Shown here: positions 56,240 through 56,963 of the stretch, piece by piece
Numbering within the stretch: position 1 is the stretch's first letter
How the letters are laid out: each line of letters begins with the position of its first letter
DNA from: Candidatus Magasanikiibacteriota bacterium
Lineage (GTDB): Bacteria > Patescibacteriota > Patescibacteriia > Magasanikbacterales > UBA922
Direction: 5' to 3'
DNA length: 64,000 bases
Assembly (NCBI GenBank): GCA_041675185.1
Contig: JBAYUH010000001.1
Coordinates: 10,869-74,868, forward strand
The notes under the pieces: generated by a model
Told to the model about the DNA's origin: nothing
What the model saw: only the letters and a program-made list of their open reading frames with translations
Database searches by the model: none
Translations under genes and position numbers: made by a program

Positions 56240-56538
56240 ATTTTTTTATAATCCTAAGCCAACGAAACAAGGCAAAAGATAAATTATCTTCTAAAAAATT
56301 TAATATAAATCTAACTAATTATAAGTATACCAAATATTGACAAAAATCACAATAATCTATATAATTCTTGCATTGTTAAATATGCCCGAATGGCGCCCGT
56401 AAAGTAGAGACTACCGTCTCACTTTTGGGCTCACGGATTAAAGGCAAAAAATTTATCATAAATTTTTACTAAGGGCATCAAGCAGTGAGCTACGAAGTAA
56501 GCCCTACTGCTTGACGGAATTGTTAAATTTATATAATT

Positions 56539-56787
56539 ATGCACTACGTTTACATTTTAAAAATGTCTAACGGAAAATTATACACAGGAAGATCAGATGA
56601 TTTAAAAAGACGTATCATTGAACATAATAGTGGAAAAGTAAAATCTACAAAAAATAATAGACCTTTAAAATTGATTTATTACGAAGCATTTATAGCAAAA
56701 GAAGATTCAATTAGAAGAGAAATGTATTTGAAAACAAGTACAGGAAAAAGAATGCTAAAATTACTTCTTAAAAAATCAAACAACTAA
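56539..56787 (+). CDS. Stand-alone GIY-YIG nuclease family protein (URI domain, about 82 aa)
   Basis: MHYVYILKMSNGKLYTGRSDDLKRRIIEHNSGK has GIY (VYIL) and YIG (LYTG) motifs and the conserved R/E/N residues. Confidence 0.75.
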   Translation: MHYVYILKMSNGKLYTGRSDDLKRRIIEHNSGKVKSTKNNRPLKLIYYEAFIAKEDSIRREMYLKTSTGKRMLKLLLKKSNN

Positions 56788-56791
56788 ATAT

Positions 56792-56873
56792 GCCCGAATG
56801 GCGGAATTGGTAGACGCGCACGACTCAAAATCGTGTTCCTTCGGGAGTGAGAGTTCGATTCTCTCTTCGGGCA
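56792..56873 (+). tRNA. tRNA-Leu (anticodon CAA), long variable arm, no encoded CCA
   Basis: Folded by hand. Acceptor GCCCGAA/TTCGGGC + A73, D-arm GCG-GAATTGGTAGA-CGC, anticodon stem CACGA/TCGTG with loop CTCAAAA, variable arm TTCCTTCGGGAGTG, T-arm GAGAG-TTCGATT-CTCTC. Confidence 0.85.
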
Positions 56874-56963
56874 CAAATAGATAAATAATAAATGTGAGAG
56901 TTCTTGCCATGAAGTGAGACGGAGTCTCTACTTCTGTGGCGATTCTCTCTTCGGGCACACAAT

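What the first reader, a model, noticed from the sequence alone, without database searches (positions are those of the whole stretch)
56378..56960. tRNA-Leu(CAA) locus with duplicated tRNA 5' and 3' termini and paired hairpins bracketing a GIY-YIG nuclease gene
The 18 nt AAATATGCCCGAATGGCG, which is 4 nt of upstream flank plus tRNA positions 1-14, occurs at 56378-56395 as well as at the real tRNA 5' end (56788-56805). The 20 nt CGATTCTCTCTTCGGGCACA, the tRNA T-stem/acceptor 3' end plus 2 nt, recurs at 56939-56958, 65 bp after the intact tRNA. Immediately inside each partial copy sits a similar about 25-bp hairpin: AAGTAGAGAC-TACC-GTCTCACTT at 56403-56426, and GAAGTGAGAC-GGA-GTCTCTACTTC at 56911-56934. 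These form imperfect about 36-bp terminal inverted repeats. The bracketed about 550 bp contain only the 82-aa GIY-YIG gene and the intact tRNA. GIY-YIG proteins are homing-type nucleases. This looks like a tRNA-associated mobile or homing cassette, or the scar of a nuclease-stimulated duplication. The region 56440-56536 also has a pseudoknot-capable element: AGGGC...CAAGCAGU...GCCCU...ACUGCUUG.
Basis: seen in the sequence. Interest (0 to 1): 0.55.

Follow-up and report, generated by a model that had tools for sequence, protein, structure and literature searches.

The report
Nuclease-hairpin cassette nested in tRNA gene
A tiny nuclease gene with its own DNA hairpins sits inside a partly duplicated leucine tRNA gene, is missing from the closest relatives, and belongs to a large family that does the same to many tRNA genes across bacterial phyla, apparently undescribed.

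Summary
Exact 19-nt and 20-nt copies of the tRNA-Leu(CAA) 5' and 3' ends, plus two related hairpins, bracket an intact 82-aa GIY-YIG gene and the intact tRNA.

Comparative data explain it. The window's closest relatives (ParA 96-98% identical) carry an empty site: same promoter, intact tRNA, same downstream flank. They have no nuclease gene, no partial copies and no hairpins. Against that allele the window has two insertions, each bounded by the direct repeats: 408 bp and 84 bp.

The pattern is general. In 80 loci of the same protein family from many phyla, 29 have a same-strand tRNA within 25 nt of the ORF (about 0.1 expected). Beyond the ORF lies a partial "outer" copy of that tRNA. This copy carries a GC-rich hairpin module inserted cleanly in a loop: anticodon 35/36, T loop 57/58, or D loop. 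In some loci the outer fragments differ from the intact inner tRNA, so the cassette brought its own tRNA.

Best reading: a selfish nuclease-plus-hairpin cassette, most like the Ssn hairpin-directed ssDNA nucleases. It lives in tRNA genes by regenerating the tRNA and using its promoter. The mechanism is inferred. I found no published description of the tRNA nesting.

The parts
56337..56365 (+). Sigma-70-type promoter (TTGACA, 17 nt, TATAAT). It is the native tRNA promoter and now drives outer fragment, hairpins, ORF and tRNA.
   Evidence: 12/12 consensus match. The homologous promoter sits directly upstream of the intact tRNA in the empty alleles L104/L105.
56377..56395 (+). Direct repeat copy 1: 7 nt of leader plus nt 1-12 of the original ('outer') tRNA-Leu(CAA).
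   Evidence: Exact 19-nt repeat. The position matches the tRNA start in the empty allele. L016, L024 and L014 keep nt 1-35 here.
56396..56429 (+). Hairpin HP1 (CCCGTAAAGTAGAGAC TACC GTCTCACTTTTGGG), first hairpin of the element's module.
   Evidence: ssDNA fold -7.4 kcal/mol, z = -3.2. L005 and L004 show a compensatory GAGAC/GTCTC to GAAAC/GTTTC change. Aligns with HP1 of L016, L014 and L025.
56430..56477 (+). AT-rich spacer between HP1 and HP2. It is specific to the window/L004/L005 lineage.
   Evidence: Absent from the L016, L014 and L025 modules.
56478..56514 (+). Hairpin HP2 (stem TCAAGCAGT / ACTGCTTGA).
   Evidence: Folds (z = -3.1). Aligns with HP2 of L016, L014 and L025.
56539..56787 (+). 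82-aa single-domain GIY-YIG nuclease gene, UPF0213/Slx1-like minimal form.
   Evidence: Pfam PF01541 at 58 bits. PDB 1ZG2 and 1YWL match at E = 8e-11 and 3e-7. Catalytic-type residues are invariant in 28 homologues. dN/dS is 0.12.
56785..56803 (+). Direct repeat copy 2: ORF stop, 4-nt spacer and nt 1-12 of the intact tRNA.
56792..56874 (+). Intact ('inner') tRNA-Leu(CAA).
   Evidence: ARAGORN. Rfam RF00005 at 59.7 bits.
56856..56875 (+). 20-nt direct repeat copy 1: T loop to 3' end of the tRNA, plus CA.
56876..56893 (+). 18-nt AT-rich spacer. It lies where the ORF lies in downstream-type relatives.
   Evidence: Sequence. Compare L032 and L036.
56894..56903 (+). Second copy of GTGAGAGTTC: end of the variable arm, T-stem 5' strand and start of the T loop of a pseudo 3' fragment.
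   Evidence: Exact 10-nt repeat D9. It closes a T-stem around HP3 in the fold.
56904..56939 (+). Hairpin HP3, inserted in the T loop of the pseudo 3' fragment. Its core is complementary to the HP1 core.
   Evidence: ssDNA fold -9.5 kcal/mol, z = -5.2. 23-nt complementarity to 56402-56424. Aligns as a compact version of the module. Absent from L005, L104 and L105.
56940..56959 (+). 20-nt direct repeat copy 2. It is followed by the native downstream flank CACAATTTAGTC...
   Evidence: In L005, L104 and L105 that flank follows the tRNA directly.

Best explanation
What it is:
- A resident copy of a widespread cassette that lives inside tRNA genes.
- The cassette is a minimal single-domain GIY-YIG nuclease gene plus its own GC-closed hairpin module.
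- In the window it is wedged into tRNA-Leu(CAA).
- Upstream of the ORF lies the remnant of the original tRNA 5' end at the native promoter, followed by the hairpin module.
- Downstream of the ORF the duplicated 5' part rejoins the rest of the gene, so an intact tRNA is regenerated 4 nt after the stop codon.
- The ORF has no promoter of its own. It is read from the tRNA promoter and is presumably freed when RNase P cuts the tRNA 5' end.
- The extra 84 bp after the tRNA is a second, ORF-less pseudo-fragment of the tRNA 3' end, with a related hairpin in its T loop.

Shown:
- the anatomy;
- the empty allele;
- recurrence at many tRNAs;
- clean loop insertion of the hairpin module;
- foreign inner tRNAs in some loci.

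Inferred:
- The nuclease acts like the Ssn family, which are small GIY-YIG enzymes that bind a hairpin next to their own gene in single-stranded DNA and cut a few nucleotides away.
- Nicks beside the hairpins in the heavily transcribed tRNA gene start recombination.
- That recombination copies the cassette into homologous tRNA genes, makes partial and tandem duplications, and can delete the cassette precisely across the tRNA repeats.
For: Empty site:
- L104 and L105 have the same promoter, an intact tRNA and the same downstream flank, with no ORF, fragments or hairpins.
- Their ParA is 98.4% and 95.7% identical to the window's. The filled relatives L004/L005 are 90.6-91.7% identical.
- Alignment gaps are window ~56378-56785 and 56856-56939.

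Family-wide tRNA linkage:
- 45 of 80 loci have a tRNA within 300 nt, 44 on the same strand.
- 29 of 80 have one within 25 nt. Background is 0.04 tRNA per kb.

Partial tRNA copies next to the ORF:
- 5' parts ending at anticodon nt 35 (Leu-CAA, Ser-CGA, Arg-TCG).
- 3' parts starting in the T loop (Glu, Gly, Asn, Arg).
- D-loop breaks (Asn, His, Thr).

Hairpin module:
- Two-hairpin modules are about 25 times denser next to the ORFs than elsewhere: 0.41 against 0.016 per kb.
- 10 of 16 pairs show compensatory changes.
- The covariance model finds 17 modules in 13 loci.
- The insertion is clean, between nt 35/36 or 57/58. Then 5-7 tRNA nt follow before the ORF boundary.

Nested proof:
- L057 outer acceptor GCCCTCG/CGAGGGC against inner GCCTCCG/CGGAGGC.
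- The L025 outer 3' part is 46/48 identical to the window's tRNA but 31/48 to its own inner tRNA.
- In L087 and L026 the hairpin-bearing repeat lies on both sides of ORF plus tRNA.
- Remnants of tandem units occur in L014, L028 and L040.

Other:
- ORF clades track hairpin type across different tRNAs and phyla.
- ORF dN/dS is 0.12.
- The promoter is a 12/12 match and there is no terminator.
- Ssn precedent: single-domain GIY-YIG, hairpin repeats flanking the gene, cut a few nt from the hairpin in ssDNA only (PMC11893778).
- SegB precedent: tRNA plus GIY-YIG tandem units formed through microhomology between the tRNA 5' end and the nuclease gene 3' end (PMC13096335).
Against: - There is no biochemical or expression evidence. 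Nuclease activity, its substrate and any link to the hairpins are inferred.
- Membership of the Ssn family (CDD cd10448) could not be tested. The nearest solved structures are UPF0213 proteins.
- The regenerated inner tRNA is identical to the presumed target. Classical homing immunity is therefore not explained.
- At this locus inheritance looks largely vertical: parA, GIY-YIG, tRNA-Leu and phosphoesterase are syntenic at 63-88% ORF identity. The empty allele may be a precise loss rather than a never-invaded site.
- How the hairpin module enters a loop is unknown.
- The window's module is an eroded, lineage-specific subtype. The covariance model does not detect it.
- The hairpin seeds were picked by a hairpin scan, which inflates the percentage paired.
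- The ORF tree rests on about 80 residues.
- 35 of 80 family loci show no tRNA within 300 nt.
Confidence: 0.6

Rival explanations
1. Classical free-standing homing endonuclease. The protein cuts the double-stranded, uninterrupted tRNA gene in a loop, and break repair copies the cassette from a filled allele. The hairpin module is simply the insertion that destroys the target site in the outer copy.
For: - An empty allele exists.
- Breakpoints fall at defined loop positions.
- Foreign inner tRNAs occur in L025, L057 and L038.
- Weak similarity to group I intron endonucleases (TIGR01453, E = 6e-4, below cut-off).
- SegB cuts within tRNA gene regions.
Against: - The protein is only the ~80-aa catalytic domain, with no DNA-binding domain.
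- The inner tRNA keeps an intact target, identical around the loop in L025 and in the window, so the donor is not immune.
- Hairpin type co-varies with the ORF clade and its stems covary. Neither is needed for a mere site-breaker.
Confidence: 0.17
2. Host-beneficial operon, not a selfish element. The small GIY-YIG protein is a repair or RNA-processing factor co-transcribed with a tRNA. The tRNA-like leader and hairpins regulate or stabilise the transcript. The partial copies are old local duplications.
For: - Synteny is conserved across Magasanikbacteria.
- Purifying selection on the ORF.
- Single strong promoter and tight ORF-tRNA spacing.
- The leader folds better than shuffles, z = -3.6.
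Against: - The closest relatives lack the gene entirely.
- The same arrangement occurs at more than 12 different tRNA isoacceptors, and on either side of the tRNA.
- Outer and inner tRNAs differ in sequence.
- Tandem remnants and arrays of pseudo-fragments exist.
- No Rfam regulatory family matches.
Confidence: 0.1
3. Two unrelated things. A palindromic miniature repeat inserts into tRNA pseudo-copies that arose by ordinary tandem duplication. The GIY-YIG gene is a passenger that happens to favour tRNA-flanking DNA.
For: - Pseudo-tRNAs can carry several different hairpins (L026, L047).
- The CCTGCCTGC..GCAGGCAGG hairpin found in the L047 D loop also occurs outside any tRNA in L104/L105.
Against: - There is a fixed 5-7-nt relation between the module and the ORF boundary.
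- Module type tracks ORF clade.
- Modules are enriched 25-fold next to the ORFs.
- The window has no other copy in 64 kb.
Confidence: 0.08
4. Scar of an integrase-type island or prophage that once integrated into the tRNA (att-site repeats), or a chance or assembly artefact.
For: A short direct repeat of a tRNA 3' end is the usual mark of tRNA-targeting integrative elements (established knowledge).
Against: - There is no integrase, and the neighbours are conserved housekeeping genes.
- The 5' end is duplicated too.
- Only 64 nt lie between the 3' repeats, and they hold a T-loop hairpin.
- The locus is identical over the overlapping ~730 nt in three independent assemblies.
- Repeat E-values are 1e-4 to 5e-5.
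Confidence: 0.03

Closest known systems
Ssn family of site-specific ssDNA endonucleases (SsnA of Neisseria meningitidis; CDD cd10448; Nat Commun 2025, PMC11893778)
   Same: - Single-domain GIY-YIG protein of 80-95 aa.
- Hairpin-forming repeats flank its own gene (the 'NTS-ssnA-NTS' arrangement).
- The enzyme binds the hairpin in ssDNA and cuts a few nucleotides beside it.
- Hairpin and protein co-evolve.
- The authors note the IS-like look of the unit.
   Different: - That paper does not contain the word tRNA.
- Its repeats are dispersed in hundreds of copies. Here the hairpins are confined to the tRNA locus, with none elsewhere in 64 kb.
- Here they sit cleanly inside tRNA loops of a duplicated tRNA.
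- Family membership is untested. The nearest solved relatives of this protein are UPF0213 proteins.
SegB, free-standing GIY-YIG homing endonuclease in the tRNA gene cluster of T4/T6 phages (PMC2330249, PMC13096335)
   Same: - GIY-YIG gene next to tRNA genes.
- It promotes inheritance of the tRNA region.
- tRNA plus nuclease repeat units form by recombination between the tRNA 5' end and the nuclease gene 3' end.
   Different: - SegB, as I recall, is a larger multi-domain protein, it is in phages, and it has no loop-inserted hairpins or nested pseudo-tRNA.
- The present family is almost absent from viral contigs, with 1 locus found.
tRNA-targeting integrative elements (prophages, ICEs, genomic islands)
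   Same: They insert in a tRNA gene, regenerate an intact tRNA from an element-borne copy, and leave a partial tRNA direct repeat.
   Different: - They use tyrosine or serine integrases, are kilobases long and duplicate the 3' end.
- Here there is no integrase and the insertions are 0.08-0.4 kb.
- Either the 5' or the 3' part is duplicated, and the breaks lie in loops.
Group I introns with GIY-YIG homing endonucleases (I-TevI type) and bacterial tRNA anticodon-loop introns
   Same: Insertion in the anticodon loop of a tRNA gene. A GIY-YIG gene is associated with the insertion.
   Different: - There is no ribozyme: the module is 40-120 nt and has no Rfam hit.
- tRNA function is kept by duplication, not splicing.
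- The insertion site is 35/36, not 34/35 or 36/37.
REP/BIME with RAYT, and IS200/IS605 with palindrome-associated mini-elements
   Same: A small nuclease gene is associated with hairpin repeats. Insertion leaves no target duplication. Recognition of single-stranded hairpins is the likely shared logic.
   Different: Those use HUH tyrosine transposases with covalent intermediates. Their targets are short sequence motifs, not tRNA loops.
Disrupted tRNA genes of Archaea (non-canonical introns, split tRNAs; PMC3293823, PMC4390854)
   Same: Breaks lie in tRNA loops and are associated with mobile DNA. Replacement or duplicate gene pieces occur.
   Different: The archaeal pieces are spliced by the bulge-helix-bulge endonuclease and stay functional. 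Here the interrupted copy is a truncated pseudogene and a second intact copy does the work.

Membership tests
GIY-YIG nuclease superfamily, minimal UPF0213/Slx1-like form | GIY-YIG catalytic domain detected above the curated threshold | tested here: met
   PF01541 at 58.4 bits against a cut-off of 22.6, covering residues 1-70.
GIY-YIG nuclease superfamily, minimal UPF0213/Slx1-like form | Conserved motif residues (two Tyr motifs, Arg, His, Glu) and no extra domain | tested here: met
   Y3, Y5, Y15, G17, R25, H29 and E61 are invariant in 28 homologues of 80-134 aa. Best PDB matches are the UPF0213 proteins 1ZG2 and 1YWL.
Ssn hairpin-directed ssDNA endonucleases (cd10448) | Sequence membership of cd10448, or homology to SsnA | not testable with these tools
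   No SsnA sequence or CDD model was available. The paper has no held supplements and no Ssn structure is in the PDB copy.
Ssn hairpin-directed ssDNA endonucleases (cd10448) | Hairpin-forming repeats flanking the nuclease gene and co-evolving with it | tested here: met
   HP1/HP2 lie upstream and HP3 downstream in the window. Modules are enriched 25-fold next to family ORFs. Module type follows ORF clade.
Ssn hairpin-directed ssDNA endonucleases (cd10448) | Cleavage of ssDNA only, a few nt from the hairpin | not testable with these tools
   Only an indirect hint: the ORF-side junction lies 5-7 tRNA nt from the module.
Homing endonuclease gene (free-standing) | Presence/absence polymorphism at the same site in related genomes | tested here: met
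   L104 and L105 are empty. The window, L004, L005 and L023 are filled.
Homing endonuclease gene (free-standing) | Evidence of horizontal arrival or co-conversion of flanks | tested here: met
   Inner and outer tRNA sequences differ in L025 (31/48 identical), L057 and L038. This is not seen in the window itself, where the copies are identical.
Homing endonuclease gene (free-standing) | The donor allele is immune because the target site is disrupted | tested here: not met
   An intact tRNA, identical to the empty-site tRNA around the break position, persists in every filled allele.
Homing endonuclease gene (free-standing) | Site-specific cleavage of the empty allele | not testable with these tools
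   Needs biochemistry.
Group I intron in a tRNA gene | Conserved ribozyme core; tRNA halves joined only after splicing | tested here: not met
   No Rfam intron hit at E up to 10 in 56200-57100, nor in 10 related loci. An intact tRNA gene is present.
DNA transposon with terminal inverted repeats | Both inverted ends conserved in relatives carrying the element; short target duplication of fixed length | tested here: not met
   The right hairpin is missing in L004, L005 and L023. Direct repeats are 19 and 20 nt here and 12 to more than 46 nt elsewhere.
Integrase-mediated tRNA-targeting island | Tyrosine or serine recombinase gene between the att repeats | tested here: not met
   The only ORF between the repeats is the 82-aa GIY-YIG gene.

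The most novel reading that the evidence does not exclude
A previously unrecognised class of bacterial mobile element that targets the cloverleaf structure of tRNA genes. In this reading:
- A minimal GIY-YIG nuclease and its cognate nested-palindrome module enter cleanly after the fourth nucleotide of a 7-nt loop (anticodon 35/36 or T loop 57/58) or in the D loop.
- The element disables the resident tRNA copy and supplies its own intact copy of the same tRNA. This is gene replacement, which makes loss costly.
- It rides on the tRNA promoter and on RNase P/Z processing for expression.
Probability: 0.35. Interest if true: 0.9.

Novelty: new variant of a known kind. Interest (0 to 1): 0.75.

Why it matters
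- Small stand-alone GIY-YIG genes form a very large family. A profile search finds 6,185 50%-identity clusters at E up to 1e-10. Most are annotated only as "GIY-YIG nuclease family protein".
- If a large share of them live inside partly duplicated tRNA genes, several things follow:
  - Many "tRNA fragments" in bacterial genomes are explained.
  - tRNA genes would have a hairpin-plus-nuclease parasite distinct from integrase-based islands.
  - There would be a natural system in which a roughly 80-aa nuclease is directed by DNA structure to defined positions of a tRNA cloverleaf.
- It gives the Ssn-type ssDNA nucleases a possible ancestral or alternative lifestyle.
- It makes a concrete question testable: what do these enzymes cut, and how does a 40-nt palindrome enter a tRNA loop without any target duplication?
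- It also affects annotation and assembly of CPR genomes, where tRNAs are single-copy.

Tried and rejected
Readings rejected:
- Group I intron, tmRNA, T-box or any other Rfam family in 56200-57100: only the tRNA scores. The same holds in 10 related loci.
- TIR transposon: the right hairpin is not conserved.
- Integrase island: no recombinase.
- Phage origin: only one family locus was found in the viral contigs.
- Meaning in the Logan contig ends: L002 and L003 both stop in the anticodon, which is most simply a de Bruijn branch at a conserved tRNA half.

Similarities judged to be chance:
- TGACGGAATTGTTA (56512-56525) resembles tRNA nt 8-21 (repeat D6). It looked like a continuation of the outer tRNA. 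However, TGAC belongs to HP2, and L004/L005 have unrelated bases there. It is probably chance.
- Weak repeats spaced 172 nt apart (D3 and D7) were not pursued, because the DNA is AT-rich and the similarity is low.

Searches that failed or were flawed:
- The covariance model of the commonest two-hairpin module (R1) does not hit the window. The window's module is a different subtype, linked only by alignment.
- The first attempt at search for related loci, with a 28-sequence alignment, failed for lack of a conserved stretch.
- The first hairpin scans were too lax or too strict because of a boundary bug. One search is the one used.

Literature:
- Ten full-text searches found no description of GIY-YIG genes nested in duplicated bacterial tRNA genes.
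- Papers outside the held library were not searched.
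Full report
**1. Observation**

The window is a contig of a Candidatus Magasanikbacteria (CPR) genome (ENA ERZ27247358 k141_235866). 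Two other assemblies are identical over the overlapping ~730 nt, which end inside the tRNA.

The finding lies between parA (minus strand, ending at 56239) and a metallophosphoesterase gene that starts at 57087. From left to right the region holds:
- a perfect sigma-70-type promoter at 56337-56365;
- a 19-nt copy of 7 nt of leader plus tRNA nt 1-12, at 56377-56395;
- hairpin HP1, at 56396-56429;
- an AT-rich spacer;
- hairpin HP2, at 56478-56514;
- an 82-aa GIY-YIG ORF, at 56539-56787;
- the second 19-nt copy, at 56785-56803;
- the intact tRNA-Leu(CAA), at 56792-56874;
- an 18-nt spacer;
- a second GTGAGAGTTC, at 56894-56903;
- hairpin HP3, at 56904-56939;
- a second copy of the last 20 nt of the tRNA plus CA, at 56940-56959.

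The exact repeats have E-values of 2e-4 and 5e-5 against the whole window. That repeat shows the downstream copy to be a T arm with a hairpin inserted in its loop, and the fold closes the T-stem around HP3.

**2. The empty site**

I searched metagenome contigs with the downstream phosphoesterase and found L104 and L105. These have the following properties:
- They are the closest relatives available. ParA is 98.4% and 95.7% identical and the phosphoesterase 83.6%.
- They carry the same promoter, then an intact tRNA-Leu(CAA), then the same downstream flank CACAATTTAGTCAAAAGTC.
- They have no GIY-YIG gene, no partial copies and no hairpins.

A global alignment places two gaps in the empty allele, at window ~56378-56785 and 56856-56939. 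Because of the direct repeats these equal 56396-56803 (408 bp) and 56876-56959 (84 bp).

More distant relatives that carry the nuclease gene (L004, L005, L023; ParA about 91%, ORF 88% identical) have the first insertion only. ORF dN/dS is 0.12 against both L005 and L025. I cannot tell whether the empty allele is a precise loss across the 19-nt repeat or a never-invaded site.

**3. Deeper relatives at the same locus**

L016, L024 and L014 (ORF 63-70% identical) keep a much longer outer copy. It has these parts in order:
- leader plus tRNA nt 1-35, ending in the anticodon at CTCA;
- a 61-66-nt module of two hairpins whose 12-nt loops are complementary to each other;
- the next ~7 tRNA nucleotides;
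- ~10 nt, then the ORF, then the intact tRNA.

The window's 56396-56516 aligns with this module. It carries a ~50-nt lineage-specific insert, and nt 13-35 of the outer copy have been lost.

L025, also at the parA locus, is the mirror image. Its layout is ORF, then an intact but different tRNA-Leu(CAA), then ACGACTCA, then the module, then the 3' part of a window-type tRNA-Leu. That 3' part is 46/48 identical to the window's tRNA but 31/48 to L025's own inner tRNA. In L025 a cassette with its own tRNA therefore displaced the native gene.

**4. The family**

A scan of one genome per species with an alignment of nine homologues returned 583 loci, of which 80 were kept. They come from CPR groups, Cloacimonadota, Lentisphaerota, Planctomycetota, Verrucomicrobiota, Bacteroidota, Nitrospirota and others.
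- 45 of 80 have a tRNA within 300 nt of the ORF, and 44 of these are on the same strand.
- In 23 the tRNA starts between 11 nt before and 15 nt after the stop codon.
- In 6 it ends 0-22 nt before the start codon.
- Background in the same loci is 0.04 tRNA per kb.
- More than a dozen isoacceptors are involved.

Beyond the ORF lies a partial copy of the adjacent tRNA end.

L057 gives the cleanest proof of nesting. Its outer 5' and 3' pieces have acceptor strands GCCCTCG and CGAGGGC. These pair with each other, and they differ from the inner GCCTCCG and CGGAGGC. In L087 and L026 the repeat that contains the hairpin lies on both sides of ORF plus tRNA. L014, L028 and L040 keep the 3' end of a further ORF copy upstream. 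L027, L037, L043 and L049 hold arrays of pseudo-fragments.

**5. The hairpin module**

- *Enrichment.* Tandem GC-closed hairpins occur at 0.41 per kb next to the ORFs and 0.016 per kb elsewhere in the same loci.
- *Covariation.* The commonest type is CCC-stem-GGG followed by YGCC-stem-GGCR. In 11 sequences, 10 of 16 pairs change on both sides. The seeds were chosen by a hairpin scan, which biases the percentage paired but not the fact that different sequences hold the same stems.
- *Covariance model.* It finds 17 modules in 13 loci. It scores almost as well on the minus strand, because the second hairpin is close to the reverse complement of the first. The module is thus a nested palindrome.
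- *Known families.* No Rfam family matches.
- *Insertion geometry.* The insertion is clean. The left flank ends at anticodon nt 35 and the right flank starts at nt 36, or the left ends at R57 and the right starts at A58. In both arms this is after the fourth base of a 7-nt loop, with a one-base ambiguity.
- *Distance to the ORF.* Five to seven further tRNA nucleotides follow on the ORF side. After them comes the ORF boundary.
- *A second type.* A single long CCCGCC hairpin sits in the D loop and goes with a separate ORF clade.
- *Movement together.* Within one ORF clade the same module type is found in different tRNAs and different loops. ORF and module have therefore moved together (the tree rests on about 80 residues).

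**6. How it most likely works**

*Shown:*
- the anatomy;
- the polymorphism;
- recurrence across tRNAs and phyla;
- clean loop insertion of the module;
- element-borne tRNAs in some loci;
- a conserved ORF read from the tRNA promoter, with no room for signals of its own.

*Inferred:* the protein is only a catalytic GIY-YIG domain. The best precedent is the Ssn family: 94-aa single-domain GIY-YIG enzymes that bind a hairpin repeat flanking their own gene, only as ssDNA, and cut a few nucleotides beside it (PMC11893778). I propose these steps:
- The module is the enzyme's cognate site.
- Cuts beside it, in a gene that is often single-stranded because it is heavily transcribed, start recombination.
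- Across the conserved tRNA sequence this recombination copies the cassette into homologous tRNA genes.
- It also produces partial and tandem duplications, as SegB does in T6 (PMC13096335).
- It can remove the cassette precisely.

Regenerating the tRNA makes the insertion harmless. Where the inner tRNA is foreign, it also makes loss costly.

*Still unexplained:*
- How the module enters a loop.
- Why the intact inner tRNA is not re-cut.

**7. Known or new**

Hairpin-flanked single-domain GIY-YIG genes have been known since 2025 as Ssn. GIY-YIG genes beside tRNAs are known in T-even phages as SegB. The following features were not found in ten full-text searches, and the Ssn paper never mentions tRNA:
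- nesting in partly duplicated bacterial tRNA genes;
- the loop-exact hairpin insertion;
- the tRNA replacement.

I therefore file the locus as a new variant of a known kind. I rate at about one in three the chance that it deserves description as a distinct class of tRNA-structure-targeting element. The literature check is limited to the held library.

Noticed in passing
window 28727-28759, 29629-30068, 31228-31260, 32283-32755, 41361-41496, 56979-57043: Arrays of a 9-nt periodic repeat, AAAGTCNNN: 30 matches against 0.7 expected. They are usually arranged as inverted arrays that can form long hairpins. One array lies directly after the tRNA locus and is conserved there in L005, L104 and L106. 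It may be an intergenic terminator-like or REP-like repeat family.
   Followed up: partly
L104 and L105, ~200 nt upstream of the tRNA next to the parA start; L047 1797-1836: A GC-rich element, GTCATCCTGAGC...CCTGCCTGCTGGCAGGCAGG, lies beside parA in the empty-site relatives. The same CCTGCCTGCCGGCAGGCAGG hairpin, doubled, sits in the D loop of the outer tRNA-Ser(GGA) in L047. A similar GTCATCCCGAGC element lies upstream in L014 (2530-2660). None occurs in the window.
   Followed up: partly
L032 and L036, 1925-2003: The GIY-YIG start codon follows the tRNA-Glu 3' end with no gap (..GGGCCAC|ATG). After 3' processing of the tRNA the message would be essentially leaderless.
   Followed up: no
L002 and L003 contig ends (equivalent to window 56827): Two independent Logan assemblies of the same organism both stop in the tRNA anticodon loop (..GACTCA). 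This is probably a de Bruijn branch at a tRNA half shared with other organisms, but it could reflect variation in the population.
   Followed up: no
proteins P0121, P0122, P0141: Some family representatives of 157-214 aa contain two GIY-YIG stretches. This would be expected if tandem cassette copies are fused or read through.
   Followed up: no
window 51711-54302 (minus strand): An 863-aa Glu/Lys-rich, probably coiled-coil protein with no Pfam hit. It lies between the ParB operon and the RelA/SpoT gene, and is absent at this position in L004 and L014.
   Followed up: no
window 56269-56287 / 56441-56459 and 56354-56366 / 56526-56538: Two weak direct repeats share a spacing of 172 nt. The second pair is -10-like (AATCTATATAATT / AATTTATATAATT). 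They could be a trace of an older duplication that included the promoter, or chance in AT-rich DNA.
   Followed up: no
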